A DNA stretch of 64,000 nt from assembly GCF_964194155.1 (NCBI RefSeq), contig NC_135888.1:27962001-28026000 (forward strand), written 5' to 3'. Made by a program: the position numbers and the translations under genes. The notes under the pieces were generated by a model, which was given only the letters and a program-made list of their open reading frames with translations, did not search any database and was not told where the DNA came from. The stretch comes from Cetorhinus maximus (lineage: Eukaryota). Below, piece by piece: positions 29,494 to 63,345 of the stretch; within the stretch, counting starts at the first letter, position 1, and each line of letters opens with the position of its first letter.

Positions 29494-29848
29494 TGAATTC
29501 CCCCTCGCTCGCTACTCTTTCTAGTACAGTGTAAGAAGACCATGTGGGTGTTTGAAAAATTCTTTGATGTGAAGACAATACTTTCACTCTTGTGCCTTGT
29601 TAGCTCCAAACTGGCCGCCACTGTGTTGTCGTCTTTTCAATCCGAACGAGGTTTGAAGTGTGTTGATATCTTGATAAAGGTTCCTGTTGCTGGGACTTTC
29701 CAGTTTTCATTGAGGGGTGGGGGGGGGGGAAGCAGTTAAAATACAACATTAGAAAAAAACACAGCTTGCTTCGAGTTTCGTATCGTAGGCGGCATTCCCT
29801 GTACGGATTCCCCACGTCACAGCTCCTTAGGAAAGCTACAGTTTATAT
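29494..29848 (+). promoter_or_regulatory. TNFSF15 proximal promoter: NF-kB sites, CRE-like site, TATA-like box
   Basis: Perfect GGGACTTTCC at 29692-29701. kB-like sites at 29494-29503, 29790-29799 and 29804-29813 (minus strand). TGACGTG (minus) at 29813-29819 and TTTATAT at 29842-29848. CpG-rich through exon 1. Confidence 0.6.
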
Positions 29849-29934
29849 GTCGGGGGAGCTAACGACAAGAAATCAAATCGCCACCTCTTCGAGCAAAGCG
29901 AGACCCCCCCGGGTGACACACCGCTACAGCGCTG

Positions 29935-30105
29935 ATGGATGTAAGGGGCGAGGACGCCGTGGCTATGATGGGACAGGCGGGCGAGCTGCAGCTGCAGGGG
30001 GCTCGGTGGAAGCGCACTCGCCTGCTCCTCGCTTGCTGCGTGAGCTGCTGCTTCCTGCTCGCAGCGCTCAGCGTTTACCTGCTTCTCCAGCACGTCGCTC
30101 AGAAG
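29935..30105 (+). CDS. TNFSF15: TNFSF15/TL1A exon 1 (cytoplasmic tail and type II TM helix). Full CDS join(29935..30105,30537..30567,30709..30753,31983..32404), 222 aa
   Basis: MDVRGEDAVAMMGQAGELQLQGARWKRTRLLLACCVSCCFLLAALSVYLLLQHVAQK followed by a gtaag donor (phase 0). The TM resembles human TL1A (R..W.L.CC...FLA.L..YLL). Confidence 0.85.
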
Positions 30106-30167
30106 GTAAGACCAGTAAAATTCACCTTCTACCACGCTGAGGATTTCTAACGAGCTGAACACGGAAG

Positions 30168-30432
30168 TTTGATACTGATTATGAAATGTGTGTACGGTTG
30201 GACATTGATTGTAATTCTAAGTTTAACATCGCCAATTTTAAGTTTGACATTGTACATTTTAAGCTTAATATTGATTCTAAATTTTCTCATGTCTGACATT
30301 AATTGCAAATTTTATCTTAAATTTGACGTTAATTGTAATTCAGTGTTTTACATAGTAAATTTCGAGTTCGATATTGGTTGTAACTTTGCCTTGTGGTTGA
30401 CATTACTTGTAATTTTATCTTAGTTTGGCATT
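30168..30432 (+). repeat. Degenerate minisatellite in TNFSF15 intron 1
   Basis: About 11 imperfect units of ~21-30 nt with consensus near TTTGACATTRATTGTAATTTTAAG. Confidence 0.6.
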
Positions 30433-30536
30433 TAAGTTAAAATAAAATCCAAGACAAGGATTTCCAGCACTGAATGTCTTACTTGTTTAAAGCAATGCGT
30501 GCACTCCATAAATACCACACGTTTGTTTTGTTTCAG

Positions 30537-30567
30537 GGTGAAACACAGACTGGTTCCGAAATGCTTC
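30537..30567 (+). CDS. TNFSF15: TNFSF15 exon 2 (stalk, 31 nt)
   Basis: ttttgtttcag acceptor, GETQTGSEML, gtaagt donor. Phase 0 to 1 keeps the frame into exon 3. Confidence 0.75.
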
Positions 30568-30708
30568 GTAAGTATTCTTAAATGATGTTACATATGCAAC
30601 TTTCAAAAAAAAGCTTTCACAACGAAAATCTGATTCGTTGTGTTCTGATTTGTCGAATTAACAATTGTTCCTTGATGCTGACAACACTTCAATCCTTTTT
30701 TCTCCCAG

Positions 30709-30753
30709 GACAACCTTTCGATACCGCTGACAAACCAAGGGCACATCTGACAG
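30709..30753 (+). CDS. TNFSF15: TNFSF15 exon 3 (start of TNF homology domain)
   Basis: tttctcccag acceptor, (R)QPFDTADKPRAHLT, gtaag donor. DKPRAHLT is identical to human TL1A. Confidence 0.9.
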
Positions 30754-31982
30754 GTAAGAGCTGCTGTTGTTTTCAATTGCATCGGGTTAATCAACGTGGT
30801 TATTATTTTTTTTAAGATTACTTTCCCAAAATATCAACTCTTTAAAAAGATCACCCTGACAATTAGAGCTTAAAAAAAGAGTTTGCTTCGTCCCATCAGT
30901 AGAAAAATTCGTGCGTTGCCTTGGCTTTTAACTCTCATCTGAACGTTATAGGCCGCTCACCATTTCATCATATCCAGATAGGAGTGATTGGTTGATTGAT
31001 ATGAACTCATTCAAAGACAGTTAGAAAAAAAAAATCTATAACAAAGTGCTTATTGTAGAATTGTTTGTAAATTATATGAGCAATATTAAGATATATGAAT
31101 CAATTCTGCCATTTTCAAGTCTGAATATATGATTATATGTATATGCTCCAGTGTAGTCAAAACCACTGAAGTGTACATTCCATTGAAGCTCAGGAGTAGT
31201 CCTGCTTATTAATAAGTTTCTGTTGGACTATGTCACATTGTGATCATCATAAAGCTGTTGGAAAATATGCCTTAGTCCAAAATTATGATCTCATGTTGCT
31301 TGGATTGCTGGATTTTGTAGTACGAGTTTGTATTAGTTTATCAAATGCCTTGTTCACCAACAGCTTCCTTCTAATAAATTCAAAAGCATCATTTTAACAA
31401 TCAGTGCAATTACTCAAAAAATATCCAGCAGGGATAAGTGGCCTCTAGTGTTCCTCAAGAAAAAAAATCTCACATTCCACAAATACCAATTAGAAAGTGC
31501 TAAGTGCACATTCTGTTGCAATATCTGAGTTACATTTCTTCATAAAAGTGACAGTATTGCCAGACGGTGTTTTCTGTGAGTTGATGTCATCACCACATTA
31601 GCATTGAGAGTTACAAAAGACTGACAAAGTTTCATTCATTTTGATGGATTCAAATGCCTAGGTTAACATTTAGACCCTAAAATTGGATAGCTGTCATAAA
31701 TAATAGTCACAAATGCCAACCAGAATTGTGACTGTATCATATCCATCGTAGGTTTTGTGCTGTTTAAGTAGCTAAATATTAATCAATGACCTATAATTAT
31801 ACAAAACAGGCCTAATGCTTTTGTAGTCTAGTTTTGTTTGTCCACCACTGGACAAGTAAAGCTTAGCTCAAATCAAGCTATAATGTATAATTGCTAAGAC
31901 TGAAGAACATTGGTTTCTTCAAAATATTTTTTCATGTAAACAGGAAAGCTTTAAATAACTAGCTTTTTATTTTTAATTTTAG

Positions 31983-32404
31983 CCAAAGAGACTCTCCCTG
32001 ATAAGATTGATGGTCAATACTTCGCTCTCCAATGGGAAGACAAGAATGGACTTGCTTTTACTAAGGGCAGCCTAAATTATCAGAACCGGGCACTTACTAT
32101 TCCTAGAAAAGGAGACTACTTCGTCTACTCACAGGTCTCATTTAGAGGCACTAGAAGCAACAAGTTAAAAAACATTACTCATATCACTCATATCATTACT
32201 AAATTGACTTTAAGTTATCCTGATCCCACACAGCTACTGAGTTCCACCAGATCTATCAATGGAGATCCATGGCATGTGGCTATCTATTTAGGGGCAGTAT
32301 TTCACCTAGAGCAAGGGGACAGGATAGTAGTAAATGTCAGCTCTGTGAATCAAGTGGATTTTACCAATGATCATAAAACTTACTTTGGTGCCTTTTTACT
32401 ATGA
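31983..32404 (+). CDS. TNFSF15: TNFSF15 exon 4 (TNF homology domain)
   Basis: ttttag acceptor, then open frame FALQWEDKNGLAFTK...IPRKGDYFVYSQVSFRG...ITKLTLSYPDPTQLL...IYLGAVFHLEQGD...VNVS...KTYFGAFLL*, closely matching TL1A motifs. Confidence 0.92.
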
Positions 32405-33714
32405 TAGCTCAGTTAAATAGGAAGTGCTGTATTCATTAATTAGGGGAGTTAAACAGATAGTTGGAGGGCTATATATGACACCTTACTTGAAGTTCTATTT
32501 ACCCCATCCAATTAAGATGTCTGGCTCACTAGCACAAATTTTTGAAGCAGAAGTTTTTCGTTGACGGACTTTTAAATAATGTTATATAGGCACAAAGTCA
32601 ACTTGTGAACTGGGGAATACAGTGAAGGGTTGCCCATGTCAGATGGAGGTTTCCAACCTTGCCATTTGAATTGAATAAATTGGCCTCCTGGCACATTGTT
32701 GAAAAGTGACAGACCAAGAAATCCAACACTGGGATGCTGGAGCAGCTGCACCGAAAGTGTGCAGTCTTAAGAATTGATCTGCCCGACAATGGAAATGAGG
32801 ACAATGCGAAACAGCCAACAAGAACACAGCAAAAACACCGAGAAGAGTAAAGGATTAAGCTGACCTATCTGCCTGCCTTCTGTGGTGTTCTAATTGAATC
32901 ACTGTGGCCCTTATATGATGTGAATTTGACACCCCTCTTTTAGATCATTCCACTGTTAACAGCTGGAAATAAACTCCTGCATTTATATTTAGAACATTTT
33001 GTGCCCAGTCTTCAAATGCAGTAACAATGACACTAAAATGCAAAGGAAAGCAGTGAATATTCAGTCAACAGAGCAGATAGAACAGAGTCAGTTCCACGTT
33101 CTGTTATATTGCTGTGTGCTTTTCTTGACACAAGGAAACATTTCCAGACCAGTGCATATTTTCAATTTAAGTTCTCAAATTTATGATGTGAATTATGTTG
33201 CTATGTAATAGTCAATTTTCATATATATTTATGTACTATCAAATGTTGATAACTAATTAGAATAATATACACCACTCAAAGAATGCAGAGCTTAGAGCTG
33301 AGTACATCATATTTAGTGGGAAATGTCCCTGATATTGTTAGTTGTACTTATGTGTATGCGTCAAGAGATAGGTATGCATGTACAGGACCAACTGAATGTT
33401 CAGCAGCCACTTCATTTGCTACAAAGGTTAGCCCATCATCTATTCCTTATTATGATCTGCACCTAAGCTACAGATTGTTTTATATTAAAACCTATTTTAT
33501 TTAGTGACACATTTTACATATTGTATGATCATGTCAAAATACCTATCTGGTACTGTAGAAATTCTTTGGACTAACTACTATTTATCTATTGAATCTTTAT
33601 CAAGATTCTGGATTTTTAACTAGTTTGTAGGATGTATATTCATTCCAATAGCACTAATTTCAAACACATGTTCTCCTCATGGTTCATGGAATTTATCTAA
33701 CAATTAATCACATC

Positions 33715-34050
33715 ATACAAATCAGGAAGATCCCAAATTTGACAAATTAATTCAGCTTTGAAAGCTGCAGTGGACCATGTTTGGGGGGGTGTGGGGTTTG
33801 AAGGGAAAAAATCAACCCAACCTCCTGCTTCTGATGCTATCTAGTGACCCCCAGTTAGAAATGCACATGCTGCGAACATTGGATGAGAACAGGGTAAGGC
33901 TTAAGTTCTGCCACTCCCACAGTTGAATAGCCTGCCAACACTCACAGATGAATAATTGTGAAGTGGGTAAGGAGGGTGCTCCCAATGGAACTGTAGTCTA
34001 ATAAGGAGTCAATGTTTTGCGAGGAAGGGAGAAGCTGTGAGAAAAATTCT
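33715..34050 (+). mobile_element. LF-SINE-like element (decayed)
   Basis: Ordered matches to the LF-SINE consensus as I recall it: caggaag.tccca, gggaaaaaatca, ctgat.gctatc.agtgacccc, gaatagcctgcc.acactcac, tggaactgta, gagtca. Confidence 0.65.
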
Positions 34051-34329
34051 ATAAATTACATTTTTATGTTGCATTTAACATATTGTACACCTGGTTGTTA
34101 ATATCGTGATTTAATATTCATCTAAAAAAGTTAATATTTAATGAAATAAAGGCTGAAATTAAGGTCATTTTTGTGAATATTTCTTTTTCTTTGCTTAAAG
34201 CCCATATTTATTTTGTTTCACCATTTTTAGTGAAAAAGTAAATGTGAATAAAGAGTGATGTAAAATCAGGAGAAATCATTCATTTCTCAGGTACTATCCC
34301 CCTGCTCTGCAAATCTGCCATCATCACCC

Positions 34330-35270
34330 TGTCAACAACTGGTATTTATACAGTGCTTTTAATGTAATAAAACAACCCAAGATGACTACAGAAGTGTTAT
34401 AAAGCACAATTTGTCTTAGAGCCACATAAAGTATTAAAATAGATGTCCAAACACTTGGTCAAAAGCGATAGGTTTTAAGGAATGTCTTGAAGGAAGAAAT
34501 ATGGATAGCAAGTTGGAGAGATTTAGGAAGGGAATTCCAGAGCTCAGAGTCTAGGCAACTGAAGGCACCGTCTGTCACCAATGGTGGAGTGATTAAAATT
34601 ACAAATGCTCAAGAGGCCAGAATGAGAGGAGCACAGATAGGTTATATAGATTAGTGCTAAACAACAACTTGTATCTAGATGAACAGAGTTTCAGGTGCAG
34701 ATGAGCTGCGGCATGGTCAGACTTGGGTGATCTTACAGAGGTGGAAGTGGGTGGGCTTGGGGATGGCATGGATATGTGGTCAATGCTCACCTTGGAGTCA
34801 GATACAACATCAAAGTTACAAATGGCTTGGTTCAGCTTCAGGGAGTGGCCGGGGAGAGCAAAGGAGTTGGTGACTACATAACAGGATTTATGGTGGGGAC
34901 TGAAGAAAATAGTTTCAGTCCATCTAATGTTTATTTGGAGGAAATTCTGTTCATCTGGTACTCAAGTGTTAAACAAGCAATCTGACAAATTAGAGGCAGC
35001 GGAGGGGATGAGAAAGTCGGTGAGATAGAACCGGGTGACATCAGTGTACATGTGGAAAGATGCAACCTCGAAGGGTTGTGGGTCTACAGAAGTTACAAAT
35101 GAGAATTTAAAAATAATCAGGAGTCAATATAGGTCAGCAGGGATGGGGTGATGAGTGAATGGAACTTTGTGTGATTTAGGGCATGGGCAATAGACTTTTA
35201 GATGACCTCAAGTTTACAGCCAGTAGAACATGGGAGGTTGGCCAGATGTGCATTGGAATAGTCAAATATT
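34330..35270 (-). mobile_element. L2-type LINE 3' fragments
   Basis: Reverse complement of an L2-like tail (caacaact.gtatttata.agtgctttt) and RT remnants (tcagtgtacat = MYTD). Confidence 0.65.
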
Positions 35271-35277
35271 GACCTAA

Positions 35278-35560
35278 AAAAAAACACCCTTGACCCCACC
35301 CCATCTGTGCAAATTACCACCCTAACTCCAACCTGCCTATCCTCTCCAAATTACCTAAGTGTGCTGTTGCCTTTCATATATGTGCCCACCTTTCCCAGAA
35401 AAAACATGTTTGAATCCCTCAAGTTAGGTTTCTGCACCAGCCACTGTATTGAAATGGCTCTTATGAAAGTCACAAATGACATCCTATGTGATTGTGACCA
35501 TGGTAAGTTATTCCTCTCCGTCTTTTGTAACCTGTCACATGATCACCCTCCTCCTACATG
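35278..35560 (+). mobile_element. L2-type LINE RT fragment
   Basis: KK.TLDP...ANY.P...HCIEMALMKVTNDILCDCD. Confidence 0.65.
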
Positions 35561-38500
35561 TCTCCAAATCAGAAATAATAAGCAAAGTTATCCAAATCAT
35601 TAGGATTACGTTGATTCTTCTCATTTTGCGATGCTCTGTCACATCAATGCCGTTCTTTATATTCTTGGTGACCATCCTCAATCACCAAATTTCTCACGGT
35701 GGTCACCACTGTATTTTGGTTCATAAAAGTAATTCTTTTGAATTTGGCTAAGGCATTTTGCATGATTATTGCATAATTCCCCGCTGCATTAATTTTTTTG
35801 ATATTTAGATTGGTTAAATAGTTTTAATCAGGAGCATGAGAAGCATTAAAGAATTGTTCTTGATGACTATTCTTGCCACATATCTTTAGCATTTAATTTT
35901 GTTTATTCATAAAACTGCTTTCTCAGAAAGCATATTTCAGAACTGCATGCAATTATTCAGTCACAAATTTTGATTAAAATAGGTATACACAAAACAAAGA
36001 AAGGCATAATTTACCATCTGATTAATAACAAAATCTCCTACCATAAAATAGAGCAGGGTGATATTTCTTTCACTAATTCTTGGGATGTGAGCACTGCAAG
36101 CAATGCTGACACTTATTGTCCATCTCTAATGGAGGTGATGGGGGCCCTTCTTCTTGACCCATTGTAATGGGTCTTTTGTGTCAAAAGTACTCCTACAACG
36201 TAGTTAGGTAACGAGTTCCAGGGTTTTGACCCAACACCAATGAAAGGATGGTGAAATAAGCAAAGACAGAGAAATAAAGGATTTGTTAATGCCAAGTGTG
36301 CAAGAAAATCTCAGCAGTTCTGAGGACTTCTTCGGTAACATTTTTAATGTTATACACCTGTACCCATAAGTAACATTATTCATTGCATTTGCAAAACAGT
36401 ATGGTACACAAATTGTCTTTGCAGGGTGATGATCTGGCCTGAGTGTAAAAGTTTGGGCCAGGTCCATTCCCAAGTCTGTCCAGATCCTGTAGCTGCAACC
36501 TAAATATTTACATCAACCTTACAACATCAAGGTAACTGACTGGAAGCCCATATAGGCATTCCTGTTTGTTTAGTCCTAAGGTAGATTTGTTTAAGGATCA
36601 AACTTGAAGTACTTTATATAGTAATTCACATTTGTGATATAAATTAATGACTGTAATGTTTTAAGAACATTTGGCCATGATTTTACTTTATATAAACAAA
36701 CACAATTTTTCCACATTATTTAGGGGACTGCCAGTCAGAAAAAGAATAAGTAACTGAACTGGCGCCAAAATATTTGGCCACAGAATCATCTATAAAGGAT
36801 GTATGTGGCATGGTCTCAACTCTTAAAGGATTGCTTGAGCACAAGTGAGAGAGAAAGAGAACGGAAGCACCTCAGTTCTCCCAAGGTTTAGCTATATCTA
36901 GTTCTACCTTGTAACTTCAAAGTAACTGATGAGGCAAACCACAGAGGGAAAGAAAATGATGGGAATTTCACAGAGAAAAAAAAGCTTTTCATTTGATTGA
37001 TAATCCTTCCTAGTTCCTGTAAATGTGTCACATAAGCAGAAAGACTGCACAACCACAAAGCACCTAACAAGTGAACACAATTCGCATTCTAAATCTATGG
37101 TTCAAAACTCATGTTATACAATGTACGCAGTAGAAATTTCCATTTGGTTATGGATGTGTTAAATAAATTTAGAAATGTTTGAAGGTATAGTAGTTTGACA
37201 TTGCAAAGGTCATGAATTTATGATCCCCCCTATGACAAGATGTGGAACTGATCACAAACAATCTTGTAATATGTGGCCGTCAGAACAAACAGACTGTTTT
37301 AAGAACCCAACCAATGTCCTTCAGGGAGTGGAGCTATCAGTCCTAATTAGTTTGGCCTACACTTTTTTTTTGCCCCAAACTGAAACGGTTGAATCTTAAT
37401 GCTCTAAGAGCAATAAATCTTGGCTTGGCAGGCTCACCCACATCCCACAAACAAGTTAAAAAAGAATGAACCATATTCTGTGCAGAAGGAGGATTTCTTG
37501 GGAAGAGTTGGCAATGTCACTTTAACAAAAGTGAAAGCAAGTTTTCAAGTCAAAAATACTTAGAGAAACAAAACTTTGTCTAACTTGGAATACAACTTGA
37601 AATATTTGTATGTACTTGATAAATAAGGGGGTGAAAGAATATCCGGGGTAGGTGGGAGGTTACAGTCAGATCAGCCATGATTTTATTGAATGGCGGTGCA
37701 GGCTCGAAGGGCCAAGTGGCCTACTCCTGCTTCTAACTCATATGTCCTTGATGAAGTTGGAATAAAAACAGAAAATGCTGGAAATACTCAGATCAGGAAG
37801 CACCTGTGGAGAGAGAAACAGAGTTAACCTTTCAGGTCAAGGGCCTCTCATCAATGGGACTACTCTGCTTGGATGAATTCAGATGGACCAAATTGCATCT
37901 CTCACCTGTAAGTACGTGGTGAGTCCTATCTAATAAACACTGTTTTAAGAGATGTGGGAGAAGAGCTGGAAGTGGGACTAATTTGGATTGCTCTTTAAAA
38001 GAAACGGTACAGAATCGATGGGCCAAATGATCTCCTTTTGTGCTGTACAGTTCTATGATTCTATGATACTAAAAGTCAGTTTGACTTAATTCATAGCATT
38101 CTTATCGCCGAGTCAGAGACCTATTTTCAAATTTCATTATGCACTTGAATAGATACACCAACAAGAATAAATTATATGTTTATTCATTTGCTGATCTTTT
38201 TGGGATCTCGTTGTACACAAATTGATGTATGTATTTGCCTACATAACAGCTGTGACTATACTTCAAAGTGTAAACCATTGTAAAGCACTTTGAGATATCC
38301 TGAGGATGTGGTAAAGTGCTAAATCAATATGGATTGCTTTCTTTACAGAACAGATTCAACAGAGGAATGGTTTTATTATTTTCAAAGAGTCAATGCAACC
38401 AAGTTCCAATGACAGACAAATTGTTAACAATTTTAAATGAAGCTTTAACTGGATTTAATCGATCATTTGTATTTCAAACTTTGAAAAATTAAACTGGTTA

Positions 38501-40075
38501 CTTTATGAGTATAATATTTTTATTCACTGATAAACTGTACTCCTTTAAGTTTTATGATTGTTAATGAGAAAATTTCCAGTATACCAATTAATCTCCTTTA
38601 GAGACCAGTTTCTCAGTAAATAATCTATTGCCCATTAAAAAACCCCAAAGGATCACTTTTAGAAACCTTTATCACATTATGAATTGAACTAAGGCAACAT
38701 TCAGAAACAAAAAGTCCCTTTCTATAAAAAGGAGAAAAATGCATTCGGTCATCTCTATGAATAAAGTAATGTTACTGAAGTGACGTTTGTTTTTTAAAAA
38801 AAAGTAATTCTGTACCATACTTGCTGTTGCCTAATTTTGTAGTCATCACAAACACACAGTTTGTGGGTCAATTTCCGGAAATTAAACTTTAACCTGGCAT
38901 CTCTCAATAAACCAACTTCCTCTTAAAGAATAACAAGCTGATAAAGCTGCTGTGACATGACTTATCCTGCACAGGAAAGGATGAAATGGATGAGACAAAG
39001 CAACTGTTGTGCTACAGTTTCTCTTCCAATAAGTGCAGTTTTCATAATAGACCCAGACCTCCTTTGCATGTTCTGTAAATGGTTACATGCGTGCCATTCC
39101 ACTTTACAGTGATGTTTGCATGGAGGTTGCCTAGGTTGTCCTCTTTAACAGTTGTCAAGGCATATCATTCAAGCTAAAACATCACATTTATTTACTTGAT
39201 TAATCACACATAACTAAATAATCAGCAACACAAGGCTTGACAAACGCAATAATTTAAAGGGTCTCATAATATTAATTTTTGAAATATCGCAATCAGTTTA
39301 GATTCTTTTAACTGAAACCACCTGGGAATTGCTGCAGTGCACGGTCTTCCATCAAGCAGCAGCAGCAACATGAAATCACAAGTCTGAAGCAGGGGGGTGC
39401 CTTTAGCACAGGGAAAGCCAATAGCACCTACTTTACTTTGGGTTTTTGACATTCAAGATCAAAACAGTTCTCGCACACTCAGCGTCTAAATATATGATCA
39501 GTTTTGCCTTTCAGGAAAGATTAAATAGGCTGCCGCTGTTTTCTCTGTAAAATAGAATGCTGAGGAGTAACCTGATAGAAGTCTTTAAGTCTATGAAAGT
39601 GTTTGATGGGGTAGACATAGGAAAAGGAGTAGGCCATTTGGCCCTTCAAGCGTTCTCTGCCATTTATTTAGATCATGGCAGATCTGTTTGTGGTTTCAAC
39701 TCCATTTTCCTATCTGCCCTCCATTTCCCTTGACATATAGAAAACATTTCCATTTTCAAGGAGATCAGAACTAGGGGCCACAGATATAAGGTAGTCACAA
39801 ATAAATCCAATAGGAATTCAGTAGAAATTTATTAACCAAAGAGACTATCTAGAGAGGTTAGGATGTTAAATTATGTCTCCACAGGGAGCAGTTCAAGTGA
39901 ATAGAAGGGATGCAACTAAGGAGAAGCTAATCACAAAGACACAAAGGAATAGAAGGATCACAGAACCCCAGAATGATAGAATTCTTACAGCACAGGAGGC
40001 CATTCGTCTCATTGTGTCTGCACCAGTTCTCCGAATGAACAATTCACTTAATGCCATTCTCCCATCTTCTCCCCC

Positions 40076-40385
40076 TGTGGTAATTTAATGTGTAATATAC
40101 ATTTAAGAAGAATGTTGTATTGGAGGATCACATGATCTTAGTATCCGATAGGGAGTAGCGTGGGCTACGTCAGTAGTCTATAGTCAGAGTCAGTAGTGTG
40201 GAGACAGGCTTTGAGTTGAAAGCACACAAGTGTTGCTGCTGAATACCCTTGTAAATAAACAGAATGTGTTCCACTTAAGAAATGTCTGCTGATCAACTCT
40301 GTCTATTGTACCAACCTGGCCATCCCAAAACAAGTGTGCAACCTGGATCCATAAGTCCCAACAAACTGGTGACTAGGATCCAACA
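40076..40385 (+). mobile_element. Solo LTR inserted in a CR1 3' fragment
   Basis: 310 bp bounded by TG...CA (tgtgg...caaca), flanked by cccc on both sides, with an internal AATAAA (~40254). The flanks rejoin as CR1 3' UTR (minus strand). Confidence 0.6.
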
Positions 40386-41419
40386 CCCCTGCACCTTCTT
40401 CCTTTTCAGATAACAGTCTAATTCCATGTAAATGCTTCGACTGAACCTGCCTCCACCATACCTAAATGAGATTAGATGAAGACGGGCGGGAGGAAATGGG
40501 TGTGGAGCAAGAATACTGGCACGGGACTGCTGGGCTGGATGTTATCTAAATTTGTCATGATTACATATGTCACTGCAACTAGGACAGTTTTTAAAAACAA
40601 ATAAAATGGAGGAAAATGACAAGAAGCAGGAAGCACAACAACAAATTGAAAGAGAAACACAAATAAGTATAGGTTAATATTGTGGTTTCAAATTTATCCT
40701 GGGGCTATACACAGACAAGCCAATAGGCCAATCAAACAAAATCATTAAATTCTTGAGTTACTTGCTTTCATAAAAAGAGTAATACAACACAATGGGGAAG
40801 TAAAACACAAGGAGTGGTTAGTGTTCAGCTTCAGCTCCAAAATATTTTGCCCACAAAATTCCAGAAATGCAAGCTGATAACAGCCTAACAAGGGCAACAG
40901 GGCACCTGGGACTCTGATGAATAATGGAACAATAGTGTATTCACTTAACCAATGAAATTTAAGGATTAAGAAATTAACGAAGGAAGGATCGAGAAGAGGT
41001 GGGGAATGAACTAGGGTGGGCAAATTTCTTGTCAAATTAGGTAAAGAAAGATAAATAAGGTAAGGGAAAGAAAGATTGAATTAAAAGAAAAGAGATAAAG
41101 AGAAAAAGAAAAAAGTGCATTTAAAATTTTACACTTATAATTTGGCAGTAACAATTTACTACGTCGAGGAATAAGAATAAGTTCACTATCTGGGGCAAAA
41201 GAGCTCGATTAACAACCATTAACAATAATCATAACATTAAAAGGGCACTTAAACTATTAATTACCAGATTTAACTTCCTGTGATAAGCTGAATGGGATAT
41301 AATGCAGCAAATGACGTGAAAATCACAGGGACATTATGGGCAAAATGTTCTTTATGCAAAGCCAACTGCTAGGGTGATAAAAATCACCAGAAAATTTGGA
41401 TAATCAAAATTCACAGGTA

Positions 41420-42660
41420 TCTCTTCCTCCCTTGCTGATGTGCACACTGATAACAATACATTCTTAGCCCTCTACTATTTCTGATCCATATACTGCCCCT
41501 CAGCAACATCATCCAAAACCAAAATGTCAGGCAGCACAGGTAAGCTGATGATACCCAGCTCTTTCTCACTTCCATCTCTCCTGAACCTTTCACCACCTCT
41601 AATTTGTCACACTCCCGGTGTCACACCTAGATATGCAGAAATGTTTTCTAAAGAAATATTGGGAAGAACTCAGACACTGGGACTGAATCCACCCTAGGGC
41701 GTAACAGTCACTGGCTGGAATTTTGATAAGTGTGCCTCCTTAATTGGCACTGAGACAGGTTTGCTGTCCAATTAAGGGTGGTGGGCAGGCTCTTAAAGCT
41801 GGAGGGCCAATCAGAGGTGCATCTAGCTGCAGTAGAAGGTGAGTAACAGAGGGAGTGTCAACAGGAAGGTGCTCTCTCAAAGTTTAATTTAAAAAAATAG
41901 AAGTAGTTAGGAGGTAGATTTGTTTTGAACCTACCTTGGTCAAAATGGCTAATGCCAAGAATGGGGTTAGGAAATTGGCATGCTGCCTATGCCAGTGTTT
42001 TGGGTCCTATCTGCCTTTGTTTCTGGCCTTAGTGACACCTGAAAATCCTGTCGTTTTTTTTTTTCAGTCCTCACCACAAACTCTATTCCCTGATCAGTAT
42101 CTCCATCTTTTTTTCCCCCCAGCAAACGTCTGAAGCCAACAGGTCTGTTCACAACCTTGGCATCCCATTTTACCCCAAGATGTGTTTCTGACCTTATATT
42201 TCCATCATATTGCCTGAGTCTGCCCCTACTCATCTGCTACTGAAACCTTTGTCCATGCCATTGTTACTCGACGTTATTACTCCAGTGCTCTTCTGGCTAG
42301 CTTCTCACCTTGCACACATGGTAAACTTGAGCTTATCCAAAACTCTGCAGCCTGTATCTTAACTTGCTTCCCCACCCGGTTCACCCACCTCCCTTGTGCT
42401 CACTAACTGGTATGGGTGCCTGGTACAGGAAAACCTAATTCTCAACCTTGTTTTCAAATCCCTTCCTACCCTCCTATCTCTGTAACCTCCTACGACCTTC
42501 CGGAAGGTCTCTGTGGTCCTCCAATTCTTGCCTTTTGTGTATCCTTGATTCTCAGCATTGACCAGAGGCCCCAACCTAAATTACCTCTCCGCCTCCAAGA
42601 CGCTCCTTCAAACCTGCCTCTTTGACTAAGCTTCTCGTCATCTATTCTAACATCTATTAC
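41420..42660 (+). mobile_element. Decayed L2-type LINE fragments with an intervening MITE-like insert
   Basis: Remnants of LSPLLFLI..LPL...ADDTQL and LELIQNSAA, plus an L2-like 3' end. Confidence 0.55.
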
Positions 42661-42859
42661 TTAATTGGCAAAAAGATGCGAAGTCTCTTGTTGTTTTTGT
42701 AAGTCATTTTGAGGTTTTTCAGAGGGCGATTATTTTTTTTCCCCCAGCAAGGACAAATGGGATGACAGGAAAGTCACAACAATCAACACGAACACTTATA
42801 GCTGCTTTATAATTTGTTTTCCGTAATACCAGTCTTTACACCTTCCAATCCCCCCTCCT

Positions 42860-43256
42860 CTCTCCGATGATGACTGTGCAAGTCGTGTGACGCGCGTGAA
42901 TTTTTTTTTAAACCCCTCCCCCCCCCCCCCAAAAAAAAAAGAAGTGAAATTAATGGGAGCGAGTTTGTCTGGAGGAAACTGACCGGATTGAAAGCGGTGG
43001 CATTTCAGGCAGGCAGGCAGGCAGGAGGAAGGAAGGGAGGGGGGTGGGGGGTGAGGAAGGGGCTGGCCGGTCCGCACTCACTCTGAGCGGAGCAAGCCAG
43101 CGAAGGGCAGCGGCTGCTCGGAAAGCCCCGGCGAGCGGAACTGCGGCGGGGACGGTGATCAAGCCTGACTGTGGATGGGGCAGCGTGGCTCTCCGAGTCA
43201 GCCTCCATCCAAGACCCGAAGCTTTTAAAACCCCAAATGATAATACATGTATTAAA
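42860..43256 (+). promoter_or_regulatory. CpG-rich promoter and 5' leader of the second TNFSF gene
   Basis: CpG-dense island directly upstream of exon 1. GTGACGCG at ~42887, IRF-like AAGTGAAA at ~42942, G-rich tract at 43035-43062. Confidence 0.5.
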
Positions 43257-43373
43257 ATGAAACCAGACTGCTTCCGATGTTTTCGCCTGAACTGCCTCTG
43301 TGCGGCTCTTCTACTTGTCGCCTCCCTCACATTTCTCATCCTCAAGAAGCAAAACTCTGCCGGCTTCCTATTG
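43257..43373 (+). CDS. Second TNFSF ligand (TNFSF15-like paralogue) exon 1. Predicted CDS join(43257..43373,43497..43530,47887..47937,49455..49864), ~203 aa
   Basis: MKPDCFRCFRLNCLCAALLLVASLTFLILKKQNSAGFLL contains a type II TM helix and ends at TTG/GCAAGT (GC donor, phase 0). The start codon choice is inferred. Confidence 0.65.
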
Positions 43374-43496
43374 GCAAGTTCACGCTTTCGCTAACTTTAA
43401 AACAAAACAAAAAAATGATTTGCTGTCTATTTATTTGAACGTGTGTATGGTTTCTGGTGTGTTGAAACAATGGCCTGTTCTCATCCTCTTTTTCAG

Positions 43497-43530
43497 GAAG
43501 ATGAAGAAGTGGAAGGTTCCGTTCTGAAAG
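43497..43530 (+). CDS. Second TNFSF gene exon 2 (acidic stalk, 34 nt)
   Basis: ctctttttcag acceptor, EDEEVEGSVLK, AAG/gtaaga donor. Phase 0 to 1, as in TNFSF15 exon 2. Confidence 0.7.
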
Positions 43531-45116
43531 GTAAGAACCTCTTTTACATCTTCAGATAGATGTTCCTGCTGAAGGTCTCCGGAAACTTTAAATTTAAAAA
43601 CAGAAAAGGAGCAAAGTTGTGTTTGGGTGATGAGGGGGATGTTGCTACTTTATCACGACACAACCCTCGGAAGAACAAAAATGTTCCTTCATGCTGATGA
43701 AATAACTTGTGTGGGTGGGCAGATTTATTTAGAACAGTTTGGGGATGTGGGGGGGGTGACCCGCTTAAAAATGATCAGACTGCAGCCTGACTCTGACGCC
43801 ATAAAATAGGCATTTGTTGTTTAAATCCTAACTAAGGGGTCAAGGCCAGTGCAAGGCTTCACCTAGAATGGAGAGCTGAGCTAATCAGAGTAGAAATTGG
43901 GTGATGCCAAGTGTTGCTTTTAACGCCTTTGGGTTGTAGTAGAATTTTTTTTAGAAACCCAGGGCACTAAATAGTTTGAGATTCTGGAAAAGGGATAAAT
44001 TAGGGTAGAGAAGCACAAATGACTTTAAATCATACTGGTCATATGAAAATTGGAGATGAAAAACATGCTTCACTATGGCAATAGATATGGGTACAGATGG
44101 CAAGCCACAGAGATTAGAAAGGATAATCAAAGAGTTGGATTTTCATTAAGTTTTTAAAAGTCATTAGTAGTGCAGTGGGGGTGTGAGGGGCAGCTCTGTA
44201 CAGTGGGCTAACACAGCTGAGGTTCTGCCACCAAGAGGTGCACAAAATGTCAGTTTTGGAAGAATGCTGAAGGTCAGAATTAATAAGCCAGCAGAGAATG
44301 ACTAAATAAAGTAATAAGGAGGGAGAGATTAGAGTATGAGAGAAAGCTAGCTGGAAACAGGAAAAAAAAGATAGTAAAAGTTTCTACAAGTATTTAAAAA
44401 GAGAGTAACTAAAGTAAGTATGGGTCCTTTAGAGAGAGCCTGGGGAATTAATAATGGGGAAATAAGGAAATGGCAGAAGCGTTGAACAGATATTTTGCAT
44501 CCGTCTTCACCGTAGAAGACACAAATGGACCATCACAGAATACTTGTAAATCAGGAGGTGCAAGGGAGAGAGGAACTTAAAACAATTACAATCACCAGGA
44601 AAAGGATACAGAAAAAGCTATTAGTACTAAAGGCTGACCAGTTCCCAGGTCCTGATCGACTTCATCCTAGAGTCCTAAAAGAAGTCACTGCCAATAGAGT
44701 GTATATTGGTTCTAATTTTCCAAAATTCCCTTGATTCTGGAAAGGTGCCATCAGGTTGGAAAATAGCAAATGTAACTCCTCTATTCAAGAAAGGAAGGCG
44801 ATAGAAAGCGGGTAACTACAGGCCTGTTAGCATAACATCTGTCATAGGCAAAATGCTGGAATCTATAATTAAGGAGACTGACTATAGAAAGGCACTTGGA
44901 GAATCTGAATGCAATTAAGCAGCGTCAATATGGTTTTGTTAAAGGGAAATCCTGTTGCACTAATTTATTGGGGTCCTTTGATGGAGTAACAAGCAACATT
45001 GGTAAAGGGGAACCTGTAGATATGGTCTGGTTGGCTTTCCAAAATGTGTTTGATAAGGTGCCACATCAAAGTTACTGCACAAACTAAGAGTTCATGGCAT
45101 AGGAGACGACCATAAT

Positions 45117-46258
45117 GGGCCATAACTTCCGAGCTCTAGGGTGTCTTACCTGGTGGGCACCACAGGGGCAACAAGACACCTTCCCCCCAACCCCACCGCC
45201 CCCTCCCCCCCCCCGGGAAGTTCCCAGGTGAGGATTGCACAGCAATAGCCTGGGTAGTGCAAACTTCCCATGGGCAATTGCCCTGCACTGGGAACCATCT
45301 GAAAATTGCGATTTAGATCGTAAACTTTGGATGGCTCAGACTGTCATACAGCAATTGTTCCCTAGGAAAAGTTAGAATTAAAACCACTTCTAGCTTCTGG
45401 GTAACTATTATACAGATCCATACTGAACTTCCCCCATACCTCTGACTTCTTCCAACTCCCACGACTGGCTGAACACCCCAATGGGGAGGCGATGGCATAG
45501 TGGTATTGTCACTTGACTAGTAATCCAGAGACTGATGGCGGGATTTTCTGCACCTGCCCACCACTGTGTCTTCCGGTCCCACCGCAAGTCAGTGGACTTC
45601 TGGCAGGAGCGCTGCCTCGCCCACGGTGGGTCCTGCCCATGACGGGGCTGGAAAATCCCAGCCCTACGGTAGGACCTGGGTTCGAATCCTGCCACGACAG
45701 ATGGTGGAATTTGAATTCAATAAAAAAAAAAATCTGGAATTAAAAGCCTAATGATGACCATGAAACCATTGTCGATTTGTTGTTTAAAAACTCATCTGGT
45801 TCACTAATGTCCTTTAGGGAAGGAAATCTGCTGTCCTTACCTGGTCTGGCCTACATGTGACTCCAGACCCACAGCAACATGGTTGACTCTTAAATGCCCT
45901 CTCAACAAGGGCAGTTAGGGATGGGCAATAAATTCTAGCCTAGCCAGCGATGCCCATATCCCATGAATAAATAATAAATCCTAACTTACTGAGAAATCTA
46001 CCTTCGTCTTGGCTTGAAAGTGGCTGGACCTTTAAACTCAATTGATTTATGGCAGCCAGTGCCATAGAAATAGGGGGCATGACCTCTTGGCCTCTGATTC
46101 AGCAGCGCTCGACTGAAAGCCTTAGGAATCTGCTGCCCTGCACAATTCTCACCCAGCCTGAGTCGGAAGGTAGGGCAAGACAGGATCGGAAACGTTTCAA
46201 GGTAAGGAAGTAGAAGTGGAGTGGCAATCTAACTCCGATTGCTGAGAATTTCAGGCCC
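45117..46258. mobile_element. MITE nested in CR1
   Basis: Termini gggccataactt... and ...aatttcaggccc. The CR1 sequence resumes on both sides. Confidence 0.6.
45484..45975 (+). mobile_element. tRNA-derived SINE, itself interrupted by a 128-bp MITE (45537-45664)
   Basis: A-box-like tggcatagtgg and B-box ggttcgaatcc. The 3' tail matches the LINE end at 22060-22125, followed by an A-rich end. Confidence 0.75.
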
Positions 46259-47886
46259 ATTATCATGGATGGAGGATTGGTTGGCTAACAGGAACCCCAG
46301 AGTAGGGATAAATAGGCCATTTTCAGGTTGGCAAGCTGTAACCATGGAGTGCCTCAGGGATGAGTTCTTGGACCTCAACTAGTTACGGTCTATATAAATG
46401 ACTTGGACGAAGGACTGAATATATATTTTCTAAATTTGCTGATGACGCAAAAATGGGCAGAAAAGTAGATATTGAGGACATAGTATACAAAGGGATTAGA
46501 TAGGTTAAGTGAATGGGCAAAAAAATTGGCTGATGGAATATAATGTGGAAAAAGTGAACTCATCCACTTTGGCAGGAAGAATAGTATAGCAGTATACTAT
46601 TTATATGGAGAAAGATTGCAAAACTCCATGGTGTAATGGGATCTGAATCTCTTGGTACATGAATCACAAAAGTTAGTATATAGGTACAGCAAGTGATTAG
46701 GAGATGAATGGAATGTTGACATTTTATTGCAAGGGGAATGGGATATAAAAGTAGGTAAGTTTGCTACAATTGCATTGGGCATTGGTGAGACCATATCTGG
46801 AATTCTGTGTGCAGATTTGGTATCCTTATTTGAAAAGGAATATAACAGCAGTAGAAGCAGTTCTGAGAAGCTTCACTTGACTGATTCCTGAAATGAGGGG
46901 GGTTATCTTGTGAGGAAAGTTTGGGCAGGTTAGGCCTGTATCCATTGTAGTTTAGAAGAATGAGATGCGATATAAGTTTGCAAGGGGACTTGACAGGTTG
47001 GATGCTGAGAGCATGTTTCCCCTTGTGGGAGAGACTAAAACTAGGAGACAGAGATAAGGAGAATCTTTTGAGTGTCATTGGTCTGTGGAATTCTCTTCCC
47101 CAGAGAGCAGTGTAGGCAGAGTCATTGAATATTTTTAGGGTGAGTTAGATAGATTCTTGACTGACAAGGCAGTTAAAGGGTATAGAAGGTAGACAGGATA
47201 GTGGTGTTCATGTCACAGTCAGATCAACCATGATCTTATTAAATGGCGGAGCCGGTTCGAGAGGCCGAATGGCCTAACCCTGTTCCTAATTCGTATGATG
47301 TCAGACTGGATAGGGTGAGAGGCCCTGAGAAAATTTGAGAACAAAGGAGGTGGGGAATTTTAAAGACAAAGAAGGAATTTTAATATAATTTCTTAGATGA
47401 CAGGAAGCCAATACAGGTCAACGAAGGAGGGGTGGGCTGGTGATGAATAATTAGGACTCCTCGAGAAACAAGATAGGGCAATAATATTGATTTCAACTGT
47501 GAATATGCAGGAAGGGAGAATTTGTTTGCGATGGAGTATTTGTAGCTTTGAAGAAAGAGGAAAAGTAGTTCAGGATAGCATTGGCTGCAATGATTTTGAT
47601 AAATATAGATTATGATAGATGGAGATTAGAACTGAAGGAGAAACCATCATCTATTATATGGATAGCAAGGAATGTGGAAGCATTCCAACACCAATAAACA
47701 GCTAGGAAAATGGGGGGCAATACTTAGGTCTGCACACACACCACCATACATCTATTCTTGTTTGTGCAGTTGAACAAAGGAATTTATGTAAACTTTGTGA
47801 ACAAACCATATATTTTTTAAAAACTGCAGCCAAAAAAATGGTGAATTGTTGGGATCAGTAATGAATATTTATTGTTTTATATGTAG

Positions 47887-47937
47887 CTTCAGATCCCATT
47901 CTGTATCACTCTGAAAGACCTGTGGCCCATCTTACCG
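47887..47937 (+). CDS. Second TNFSF gene exon 3
   Basis: (A)SDPILYHSERPVAHLT followed by G/gtaagt. P.AHLT is the TNF strand A motif. An alternative in-frame acceptor lies at 47893. Confidence 0.85.
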
Positions 47938-48704
47938 GTAAGTGTGCCATTCAGTCATGAGCAGGATAGATAAATATTCAAGGAAGTATCCAAAATTTGC
48001 AAATGTTATTATATAGAGAAATTGTGTATTTAAAAAAAGGAAAATTCCTATATGTAACAGTAGAATGTCTTCATAATAATGAGATTCTGGCATTTGTGTG
48101 CCCTTCCTGTCAAGTTTTTTTATTTGCATTTTCCATGCCCATACTCATTATGGTAGCTACTTATGTAAACTTGTCACAGCAATTACATCTTTCAAACAGT
48201 GGTGGTGCTGTAGAACCTTGTGCTTGCATCTCACAACTCATCAACCTGCACTGCAAAGAAACTTCAGTGCTCTAATCAACTCTATCACTTATAAATGTAG
48301 CAATTTGTGAATATTTAACTGTAAATATAAAATCAAATGTTATGTAAAATTAAGGACAGAATGTACAAAGCTATCTTCTGCCTTCTAATCCCCACTTCAC
48401 ATGATGATTGCAATTAGCCTTTAATCCCCAATTCTGTTGCATGGGAGATTGATCAGTTCAGTGCTAAATACAATTGAGTCATAGCTGGAACTCTGGATCA
48501 AAATGATGATCTGACAGAGCATAATATAGTAGGTTATCTAAATTGTTACAAAACAACTTCTACATGGTTAAACGGATTGCTCTGTCAAATGCAAAGTGCC
48601 TGAGCACTGAATTGAACCATTGTTTTTGCAGCATTGCTCAATGGATCAGCTTTTTGAAGTAGTGTTTCTCACCCCCACGAACCTATATGCTTGTTATTTT
48701 CAGC

Positions 48705-49125
48705 ATCAGCTTGGCTCAGTGGTAGCATTGTCACTTCAGAGTCCAAAAGTTGTGAATTCATGTCCCGCTTGAAGACTTGAGCCAATAATCAAGGCTGACA
48801 CTTCATTGGAGAACCGACGGGTTGCTAGAATGTTAGAACTGTTGTCTTTCAGATAAGACTTTAAAACGAGGCCCCATCTGCCTGCTCAGGTGGACATAAA
48901 AGATCCCATGGCATCATTCACTGGAAGAGTCCCTTCTTCAATGTCTTGGATAACTCTTTCCCCTTGGAAGCATCACCAAAGTAGTTTAACTGTTGCTTTA
49001 TCTCATTACTGTTTGTGGAACCTTGTGTGCACATTAGCTGCTGCATTTCTCTACATGAGTGACCATAACTCAGAGCAACCAATTGACTATGATGCACTTT
49101 GGGACATCCTATGGATGTGAAAAGT
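48705..49125 (+). mobile_element. Deu-domain SINE in intron 3
   Basis: tRNA-like head (tggctcagtggtagc) and Deu core ccatctgcctgctcaggtggacataaaagatcccatggca. Confidence 0.75.
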
Positions 49126-49454
49126 TCTTTATTTCTCTATGTTTCATTCACTTTTTTTTTTCAATATCACAAAGGAAGAGGAAAACTAACAGACAATCTC
49201 ACAGTCACAAAATAATATTACATTGATATAGATGAGGGAAAAAAGCACTGCAAAACTATTTTGAAAGGAAACCACCTTGGTGTCACCCCTGGCAATAATG
49301 TAATCACCCAAACTAGATTCTGTGTAGTGTATCTATTAGATCAGTTCTATATGTAATTGTTATGGGTTTTACTATAAAAATAACTGTGTCCAAAACTCTC
49401 TGCAAGAAGATTGATGTAAGCATTTTTGTCAATTAACTTGTCTTTTTTGTAAAG

Positions 49455-49864
49455 GAACAAAATCAAGTGATGGACGTCTCAGATATATGGAATGGGAAAC
49501 TGAGAAGGACCTGGCATTCATCAAAAATGGATTCATTTACCAAAATGGCAGTTTGATTGTACCTGTCACTGGACAGTACTTTGTGTACTCTCAGGTTTAC
49601 CTACGTGCTAAAAACTGTGTGGAAAGCAATACCTTCATTAGACATACAATCAACAAAAGAATACGAACAGATTTGGCTCCCATGACACTAATTAGCAAGA
49701 CCGTTCAGTGTCAACCTAACATAGGTGATTTCTGGTTTCAAACAAACTATGTAGGGGGAAAATTTACTTTGAACAAGGGAGATGAACTGTTTGCCAATAT
49801 TTCTGATTTGGCATTGTTGGGTAATGATGAAAATCAAACATTCTTTGGAGCACTGTTACTATAA
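49455..49864 (+). CDS. Second TNFSF gene exon 4 (TNF homology domain)
   Basis: ttttttgtaaag acceptor, then open frame MEWETEKDLAFIKNGFIYQNGSLIVPVTGQYFVYSQV...WFQTNYVGGKFTLNKGDELFANIS...QTFFGALLL*. Confidence 0.92.
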
Positions 49865-62900: not shown

Positions 62901-63345
62901 CATGGCACCAGAAGTAATTGAGAGATTACTACCTTTGAGGCCCTGTTTTTTAATCTGCTTCCTAGATCCCTAAATTCTGCTTGCAGGACCTCATCCTTCT
63001 TACTACCTATGTCATTGGTACCAATATGTACCACGATCTCTGTCTGTTAGAATATAAGAACTTTAAAAACTCCCCCTTTGGAATGCCCTGCAGCCGTTCA
63101 GTGACATCCTTGATTTTGGCACCAGGGAGGCAACATACCATCCTGGAGTCATGCCTAAGGCCGCAGAAATGCTTGTCTGTTCCCCTTACTATTGAGTCTC
63201 CTACCATTATTGCTGTTCCCCTCTTTTTCCTCTCCCCCTGTGCAGCTGAGCCACTCACTGTGCCATGAGCGTGGCTGCACTCCCCAGAGGAACCATCACT
63301 CTCACTGTTTTCCAACACAGAAAAACAGTTCTCAAGCGAGATGCT
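59925..63345 (-). mobile_element. Near full-length CR1 LINE (ORF1 SGNH esterase-like; ORF2 APE endonuclease and RT), disrupted
   Basis: ORF1: VGDSIVRG, VHIGTNDIG, DRLHLN. ORF2: [50 protein letters not shown]. Multiple stops and frameshifts. Confidence 0.95.

What the first reader, a model, noticed from the sequence alone, without database searches (positions are those of the whole stretch)
29935..49864. Tandem pair of TNF-superfamily ligands: TL1A plus a divergent sister gene
Seen: two intact four-exon type II membrane TNF ligands on the same strand, about 11 kb apart, with identical intron phases (0,1,1) and similar exon sizes (31/34, 45/45-51, 422/410 nt). Established: in mammals TNFSF15 neighbours TNFSF8 (CD30L), whose THD lacks the AHLT, YSQV and FFGA motifs that gene 2 has, so gene 2 is not CD30L-like. 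Inference: gene 2 is an old tandem paralogue with no direct mammalian counterpart. It may be an uncharacterised cytokine, or a heterotrimer partner by analogy with the clustered LTA/LTB genes. It may already be catalogued among fish-specific TNFSF genes; I cannot check this.
Basis: partly seen in the sequence, partly recalled or inferred. Interest (0 to 1): 0.72.

Follow-up and report, generated by a model that had tools for sequence, protein, structure and literature searches.

The report
Shark TL1A beside known neighbour TNFSF30
These are two real, already catalogued shark immune-signalling genes, TL1A and its neighbour TNFSF30 (not found in mammals); TNFSF30 is spliced in two forms and likely works as a membrane-bound trimeric cytokine with a receptor preference of its own, so the locus is ordinary apart from that untested function.

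Summary
Both four-exon genes are intact and match RefSeq shark proteins letter for letter. Gene 1 is TNFSF15/TL1A (tree 98/95). Gene 2 is already named: TNFSF30 in RefSeq, TNFSF-Fish2 in Marín 2020/2025. It forms a 100/95 clade with shark, chimaera and coelacanth genes. The pair is the middle of a published four-gene tandem (TNFSF-other, TNFSF15, Fish2, Fish5, then TMEM268 and ATP6V1G1), which this genome repeats. RNA contigs of related species show gene 2 spliced through a GC-AG first intron. I found no functional study. TNFSF30 keeps most trimer-core residues but lacks the DE-loop tyrosine (0 of 9, against 76 of 90 other ligands), so it is likely a homotrimer with its own receptor mode. The heterotrimer idea is untested. 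One point I did not find described: an in-frame exon-3-skipped form, seen in five species' records and 1 of 7 RNA runs. In it the unusually conserved end of exon 2 is predicted to replace beta-strand A. Verdict: already known, interest 0.2.

The parts
29935..30105 (+). Gene 1 (TNFSF15/TL1A) coding exon 1: cytoplasmic tail and signal-anchor (hydrophobic peak aa 30-48)
   Evidence: RNA contigs over 29905-30103 in X2 and X3
30537..30567 (+). Gene 1 exon 2 (31 nt, stalk)
   Evidence: RefSeq match
30709..30753 (+). Gene 1 exon 3 (45 nt, phase 1-1; encodes beta-strand A)
   Evidence: RefSeq match
31983..32404 (+). Gene 1 exon 4: TNF homology domain with DE-loop Tyr161; no cysteine in the domain
32405..34167 (+). 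Gene 1 3' UTR, about 1.8 kb, with many ATTTA pentamers; AATAAA at 34145
   Evidence: RNA contigs end at 34153-34167 in X1, X2 and X3; motifs
43075..43256 (+). Gene 2 5' leader: upstream out-of-frame ATGs at 43175, 43237 and 43247; in-frame GTG at 43185 that is ATG in three related species
43257..43373 (+). Gene 2 (TNFSF30 / TNFSF-Fish2) coding exon 1: about 10-aa tail and hydrophobic segment aa 11-29
43374..43496 (+). Gene 2 intron 1, non-canonical GC-AG, 123 nt
   Evidence: 123-nt joint in 4 of 4 runs from 3 organisms
43497..43530 (+). Gene 2 exon 2 (34 nt); strongly conserved; its end is the predicted substitute strand A in the skipped form
47887..47937 (+). Gene 2 exon 3 (51 nt, phase 1-1, cassette exon; distal stalk and beta-strand A)
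   Evidence: included in 6 of 7 runs, skipped in 1 of 7
49455..49864 (+). Gene 2 exon 4: TNF homology domain; Cys122 and Cys153; three N-glycosylation sequons; no DE-loop tyrosine

Best explanation
The stretch holds shark TL1A (TNFSF15) and the already named TNFSF30 (TNFSF-Fish2), two spliced TNF-family ligand genes inside a four-gene tandem, and TNFSF30 likely works as a type II membrane homotrimer that signals through a TNF-receptor-family partner by contacts other than the usual DE-loop tyrosine. Shown: gene structure, identity, orthology, synteny, splicing of gene 2 in related sharks, and two splice forms. Predicted: the jelly-roll fold of both forms. Inferred from the family: membrane insertion, trimer formation, shedding, and signalling to NF-kB or cell death. 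Gene 1 keeps the DE-loop tyrosine and would bind DR3/DcR3-type receptors as in mammals. The 10-residue tail of gene 2 would leave little room for reverse signalling. Skipping exon 3 would shorten the stalk by 17 residues and swap strand A, probably tuning shedding or activity.
For: Identity: the 203-aa model equals XP_078406398.1 and clusters with NP_001409676.1 'TNF superfamily member 30', 141 of 143 residues identical over the domain. The coelacanth member carries XP_006012425, the record Marín labels TNFSF-Fish2. Trees: TNFSF30 clade 99/97 (52 rows) and 100/95 (44 rows); TNFSF15 clade 98/95. Synteny: laminin-EGF exons at C10:27.58 and 27.79 Mb, four PF00229 genes at 27.945-28.051 Mb, DUF4481 at 28.31-28.33 Mb, V-ATPase G at 28.34 Mb, the order published for whale and white shark. 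Fold: AlphaFold2 pLDDT 82; top PDB matches are TL1A, FASL and LIGHT. Trimer core by alignment: strand-A Ala-His in 9 of 9 TNFSF30, C-strand Tyr in 9 of 9, F-strand Tyr in 8 of 9, H-strand aromatic in 9 of 9 (the assignment of these columns to the core is recalled from TNF). DE-loop Tyr: 0 of 9 TNFSF30 against 76 of 90 other ligands in alignment A2, rows chosen by me. PMC8558838 (passages) says this Tyr matters for receptor binding in FasL, TL1A, TRAIL, TNF, LTa and LIGHT, and is absent in RANKL, OX40L, CD40L and 4-1BBL.
Against: No trimer, receptor, shedding or activity was tested. One core column is polar in 8 of 9 TNFSF30 (Lys or Thr; Met in the ninth) where others are mostly Val, Leu, Ile or Met (81 of 90), which could weaken a homotrimer. 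The deep position of TNFSF30 is unresolved: unions with TNFSF15, FASL/LIGHT or TNF are all not rejected (AU p 0.31, 0.49, 0.21). Topology rests on hydropathy only; a cleaved signal peptide is not excluded. All RNA evidence is from contigs of related organisms (A, B, C), not from the window's species.
Confidence: 0.65

Rival explanations
1. TNFSF30 is a partner subunit that forms mixed trimers with TL1A, as LTb does with LTa, and so changes receptor specificity.
For: Adjacent, same strand, same exon plan. Contigs of both genes occur in the same runs X1, X2 and X3. A polar residue at one core column and the loss of the DE-loop Tyr would suit a partner subunit. Heterotrimers are reported for LTa/LTb and APRIL/BAFF (PMC7674686 passages).
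Against: The domains are only 54 of 140 identical, and the other core residues are of the homotrimer type. TL1A persists in skate, ray-finned fish, lungfish and tetrapods where TNFSF30 is listed as absent. Adjacency alone is weak: two more TNFSF genes flank the pair.
Confidence: 0.12
2. TNFSF30 is a secreted cytokine like LTa: its N-terminal hydrophobic segment is a cleaved signal peptide, not an anchor.
For: Very short N-terminus in all 8 aligned orthologues. Small residues follow the hydrophobic segment in this species.
Against: The hydrophobic segment is about 19 aa and is modelled as one long helix, aa 9-34. The small-residue stretch is missing in Pristiophorus. Three related species have an in-frame upstream ATG that would lengthen the tail by 24 aa. 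No signal-peptide predictor was available.
Confidence: 0.13
3. TNFSF30 is a functionally redundant copy that uses the receptors of TL1A or FASL (DR3, Fas, DcR3), which would explain its repeated loss.
For: Best matches are FASL (79 bits, an engineered mutant; 74 bits for the next FASL chain) and TL1A (73 bits). All 11 hits after the TNFSF30 group are named TNFSF15. Ligands of this ancestry share DcR3 in mammals (PMC11762692 section 3.7).
Against: The DE-loop Tyr used by those ligands is absent in 9 of 9. The domain is conserved across sharks at least as well as that of TL1A (75% against 71% in the same three species), which argues for a constraint of its own.
Confidence: 0.1

Closest known systems
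TNFSF30 (RefSeq NP_001409676.1, NP_001409673.1, NP_001279173.1, NP_001409680.1) = TNFSF-Fish2/F2 of Marín 2020, 2025
   Same: Gene 2 is this gene: 98.6% identical over the domain to the white shark protein, same clade, same position between TNFSF15 and TNFSF-Fish5.
   Different: Nothing at gene level. In the passages and supplement parts I saw, those papers do not discuss its function, its exon-3-skipped form or its GC donor; 'isoform' occurs 0 times in the main text of PMC11762692.
TNFSF15 / TL1A
   Same: Gene 1 is its orthologue: PDB TL1A 138.7 bits against 73.3 for the next family member; DE-loop Tyr kept.
   Different: The shark domain has no cysteine, whereas a CD-EF disulfide is described for classical ligands including TL1A (PMC8484739). 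Gene 2 shares only 39% with it.
FASL / LIGHT
   Same: Gene 2's top PDB sequence hits are FASL, hence automatic names such as 'TNFSF6-like'.
   Different: The genome has separate FASL (C18) and LIGHT (C29) genes that form their own 97/90 clade.
TNFSF8 / CD30L
   Same: Also a tandem neighbour of TNFSF15, in sarcopterygians.
   Different: It lies on the side away from TMEM268. The shark gene at that position is L021 ('TNFSF-other'; Redmond's putative CD30L as reported by Marín), not gene 2.
delta-BAFF (exon-3-skipped BAFF)
   Same: An in-frame skip of a short exon near the start of the TNF domain (existence: PMC2212784 passage).
   Different: Its inhibitory action is recalled, not read. In TNFSF30 the skip removes strand A itself, and exon 2 is predicted to replace it.

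Membership tests
TNF ligand superfamily (both genes) | C-terminal TNF homology domain, PF00229 above cut-off | tested here: met
   112.6 and 89.9 bits against 23; jelly-roll model of gene 2
TNF ligand superfamily (both genes) | Single N-terminal hydrophobic anchor (type II) | tested here: inconclusive
   One hydrophobic segment each (mean hydropathy 2.45 and 2.49); anchor versus cleaved signal not resolved for gene 2
TNF ligand superfamily (both genes) | Trimer formation and binding to a TNF-receptor-family protein | not tested
   No complex prediction could be run; needs experiment
TNFSF15/TL1A orthologue (gene 1) | Clade with tetrapod TNFSF15 | tested here: met
   98/95 without long branches; 84/61 with them
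TNFSF15/TL1A orthologue (gene 1) | Locus beside TMEM268 and ATP6V1G1 | tested here: met
   DUF4481 and V-ATPase G exons 0.3 Mb downstream on C10; the equation DUF4481 = TMEM268 is recalled
TNFSF15/TL1A orthologue (gene 1) | Binds DR3 and DcR3 | not testable with these tools
   DE-loop Tyr161 present; binding untested
TNFSF30 / TNFSF-Fish2 (gene 2) | Clade with Callorhinchus and Latimeria members | tested here: met
   99/97, 100/95; no unnamed representative fell inside it in a 180-row FastTree
TNFSF30 / TNFSF-Fish2 (gene 2) | Position between TNFSF15 and TNFSF-Fish5 | tested here: met
   the flanking genes were matched to the published Rhincodon sequences by eye
FASL, LIGHT or TNF/LTA orthologue (gene 2) | Groups inside that orthogroup | tested here: not met
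   Each has its own genes on C18, C29 and C22 and its own clade; a sister relation to FASL/LIGHT is not rejected
CD30L / TNFSF8 orthologue (gene 2) | Position on the TNC/MEGF9 side of TNFSF15 | tested here: not met
   Gene 2 lies on the TMEM268 side; no TNFSF8 sequence was in my trees
LTa/LTb-type heterotrimer pair | The two products co-assemble | not tested
   Needs co-expression and pull-down

The most novel reading that the evidence does not exclude
TNFSF30 makes two folded ligands from one gene by swapping its first beta-strand through splicing. When exon 3 is skipped, the end of exon 2 takes the place of strand A, giving a trimer that lacks the invariant Ala-His, sits 17 residues closer to the membrane and is shed or bound differently. 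The form is recorded in five shark species from two orders and is the unbranched contig in one RNA run. The stalk exons are 88-90% conserved, against 30-33% in TL1A. Bird TL1A records show a similar skip, so this could be a general, overlooked switch in this branch of the TNF family.
Probability: 0.25. Interest if true: 0.5.

Novelty: already known. Interest (0 to 1): 0.2.

Why it matters
As a discovery it matters little: the gene, its name, its neighbours and its distribution are published or curated. What remains open is function. TNFSF30 is a ligand of the jawed-vertebrate ancestor, kept in sharks, chimaera and coelacanth and listed as lost elsewhere, with no receptor found in my searches. 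The missing DE-loop tyrosine and the conserved exon-3 skip give two concrete, testable handles. If the strand-swap form folds and signals differently, it would be a new way in which splicing tunes a TNF ligand.

Tried and rejected
Read-through fusion (TL1A exon 1 joined to TNFSF30 exons 2-4, as in the Chiloscyllium model GCC31576.1): no support. Gene 2 contigs run unbroken from its own exon 1 in the 7 runs laid, and no loose end lies before exon 2 in 4 of 4. It is probably a prediction error at the GC donor; contigs drop rare forms, so it is not excluded. The 45-nt exon 3 acceptor was not seen. kB-like sites at 29692 and 43120: 11 matches in the window against 8.7 expected, 26 of 100 shuffles as high, so not evidence. 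Run X4 holds gene 2 without cover of gene 1's coding exons; a hole in contigs proves nothing. No TNFSF30 record from rays, carcharhiniform sharks, ray-finned fish, lungfish or tetrapods appeared (only 7,998 candidates scored, clusters at 50%), which is not proof of absence. Literature: 'TNFSF30' 0 papers; 'TNFSF-Fish2' 1 paper; TNFSF29-33 one relevant paper of 2. Redmond et al. 2022 (J Immunol 209:1713) and Gavin et al. 2003 are not held, and Redmond may describe isoforms or expression. The Newick tree in Marín's supplement was cut. Three look-ups of earlier scan findings returned nothing. Rows left out of trees: fragment L023 always; long-branch rows L011, L016, L021, L022, L024, L025, L026 and duplicate P0145; L006-L008 also; P0163.
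Full report
Observation. I rebuilt both genes from the window. Gene 1 has exons 29935-30105, 30537-30567, 30709-30753 and 31983-32404, giving 222 aa. Gene 2 has exons 43257-43373, 43497-43530, 47887-47937 and 49455-49864, giving 203 aa. Phases are 0,1,1 in both. All introns are GT-AG except intron 1 of gene 2, which is GC-AG. Both last exons score far above the PF00229 cut-off. The two translations, and the exon-3-skipped form of gene 2, equal RefSeq models labelled Cetorhinus maximus letter for letter.

Gene 1 is TL1A. Its best solved relative is human TL1A at 138.7 bits, against 73.3 for the next family member. Of the 120 listed homologues, every one with a gene name is named TNFSF15; the rest are unnamed or 'hypothetical'. 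It sits in a TNFSF15 clade with tetrapods at 98/95 when long branches are removed, and at 84/61 with them.

Gene 2 is TNFSF30, alias TNFSF-Fish2. Its cluster contains NP_001409676.1 'TNF superfamily member 30'. The two other clusters with E below 1e-30 among 598 hits are Callorhinchus and Latimeria proteins also named TNFSF30. The Latimeria record is XP_006012425, which Marín 2020 labels TNFSF-Fish2 (supplement rows). These nine sequences form one clade at 99/97 and 100/95. A profile search returned 12 members, all from sharks, chimaera or coelacanth, at 295 bits or more; the other 11 of 23 hits were TNFSF15, at 124 bits or less. That the name TNFSF30 comes from Redmond et al. 2022 is my inference; that paper is not held.

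The pair is the middle of a four-gene tandem. Genome G000 has 26 PF00229 matches among 29 candidates, four of them on contig C10 within 106 kb and on one strand. Upstream lie laminin-EGF exons (MEGF9-like); downstream lie DUF4481 and V-ATPase G exons. Marín's tables give MEGF9, TNFSF-other, TNFSF15, Fish2, Fish5, TMEM268, ATP6V1G1 for whale and white shark. They list Fish2 as absent in skate, ray-finned fish, lungfish and tetrapods. By eye, the outer genes L021 and L022 match the published 'other' and Fish5 sequences. CD30L occupies the upstream position in tetrapods, so gene 2 is not its positional counterpart. FASL, LIGHT and TNF/LTA have their own genes on C18, C29 and C22. Where TNFSF30 joins the tree is unresolved: unions with TNFSF15, FASL/LIGHT or TNF are not rejected (AU p 0.31, 0.49, 0.21). 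A hagfish gene is its weakly supported sister (93/81).

Transcripts. I laid 7 of the 22 runs listed, all contigs from related organisms A, B and C and marked 'RNA?' by the tool; the spliced joints show RNA. The 123-nt first intron is removed in 4 of 4 runs. Exon 3 follows exon 2 in X7, X9 and X10 by direct letters. In X1, X2 and X3 there are 85 letters between exons 1 and 4, which is 34 plus 51. In X4 exon 2 runs straight into exon 4. The skipped form is also on record for five species, and the 186-aa Rhincodon record carries the curated-type accession NP_001409680.1.

Mechanism. Shown: two expressed TNF-family genes and two splice forms of gene 2. Predicted: AlphaFold2 gives the full form a long N-terminal helix and a complete jelly roll (pLDDT 82), nearest to TL1A, FASL and LIGHT. 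Inferred: a type II membrane homotrimer. Most core columns are kept, with one polar exception on strand F. The DE-loop tyrosine is absent in 9 of 9 TNFSF30 and present in 76 of 90 other ligands of my alignment. PMC8558838 describes this residue as important for receptor binding in FasL, TL1A, TRAIL, TNF, LTa and LIGHT. So TNFSF30 probably does not simply share the receptors of TL1A. It has the CD-EF cysteine pair of classical ligands (PMC8484739), which shark TL1A lacks. I put this reading at 0.65, a TL1A heterotrimer at 0.12, a secreted LTa-like form at 0.13 and redundancy at 0.10.

The skipped form. It loses the Ala-His-Leu-Thr of strand A, yet the model places the end of exon 2 as a strand at residues 47-52. 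Local pLDDT is about 76, against 94 for the normal strand. The model aligns to LIGHT over 139 of 143 residues (Z 21.7, rmsd 1.9). Against this: the input alignment had already put exon 2 in register with strand A, so the model is biased. For it: in the same three sharks, exon 2 and the exon-3 stalk of TNFSF30 are 29 of 33 and 27 of 30 identical, above its own domain (306 of 408), while those of TL1A are 9 of 30 and 8 of 24. That constraint could also reflect a cleavage site or splicing signals. Any phase 1-1 exon of this length skips in frame. Of 103 membrane-type TL1A records, 17 lack the strand-A motif, 11 of them bird models that look by eye like the same skip, so the event is not special to this gene. 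The nearest precedent is delta-BAFF (existence read in PMC2212784; its inhibitory role is recalled).

Papers seen. PMC7674686: passages and supplement search rows. PMC11762692: passages, section 3.6, part 1 of 2 of section 3.7, supplement parts 1, 19 and 20 of 23 and search rows; its tree file was cut. PMC8558838, PMC8484739, PMC8781899, PMC2212784 and PMC2954241: passages only. Redmond 2022 and Gavin 2003: not seen, only cited by others; they and their supplements may bear on isoforms and function. The searches for TNFSF30 and TNFSF-Fish2 found 0 and 1 papers, in a library that lacks most subscription journals.

Verdict. A real, well-described feature that is already known. Interest 0.2. What remains of interest is an orphan ancient ligand and a possible splice-driven strand swap (probability 0.25, interest 0.5 if true).

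Noticed in passing
window 43185-43187: An in-frame GTG in strong context is ATG in organisms A, B and C; the white shark model XP_041050142.1 uses it for a tail 24 aa longer. Possible lost or near-cognate start here.
   Followed up: partly
window 43175-43260: Three upstream out-of-frame ATGs in the leader of gene 2; the uORF from 43237 ends on a stop that overlaps the main ATG. Possible translational damping.
   Followed up: no
P0004 (Chiloscyllium GCC31576.1): A database model joins TL1A exon 1 to TNFSF30 exons 2-4 in frame; no RNA contig supported such a fusion.
   Followed up: partly
G000:C10:27945585-27945932 (L021): Divergent TNFSF gene upstream of TL1A, at the position of tetrapod CD30L; disputed in print as CD30L (Redmond, as reported by Marín) or a TL1A duplicate (Marín).
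   Followed up: partly
G000:C10:28047590-28051483 (L031, L022): TNFSF-Fish5: probable exon 1, strand-A exon and domain exon lie 21-25 kb beyond the window end.
   Followed up: partly
G000:C22:6.5-7.4 Mb: Eight TNFSF matches (six TNF/LTA-like) followed by V-ATPase G and a second DUF4481 gene: the MHC paralogon mirrors the C10 cluster.
   Followed up: no
window 32405-34167: Long 3' UTR of TL1A with about a dozen ATTTA pentamers, as is usual for short-lived cytokine mRNAs (recalled); no chance control run.
   Followed up: no
window 29692-29701 and 43120-43129: kB-like decamers near both starts; not above chance over the whole window.
   Followed up: yes
window 30539-30738: A contig in run X2 retains intron 2 of gene 1; pre-mRNA or DNA.
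   Followed up: no
P0024, P0042-P0044, P0051, P0081, P0089, P0108, P0110, P0119, P0120: Bird TL1A models that lack the strand-A exon; in them the end of exon 2 also resembles strand A.
   Followed up: partly
window about 44350-47300, 55800-64000 and elsewhere: Broken reverse-transcriptase-like reading frames of LINE type (family recalled, not tested) fill intron 2 of gene 2 and much of the window.
   Followed up: no
Mustelus, Scyliorhinus and rays gave TL1A records but no TNFSF30 record; loss or missing annotation was not tested.
   Followed up: no
P0131 (Callorhinchus TNFSF30): Carries an 18-residue C-terminal extension beyond strand H that the other members lack.
   Followed up: no
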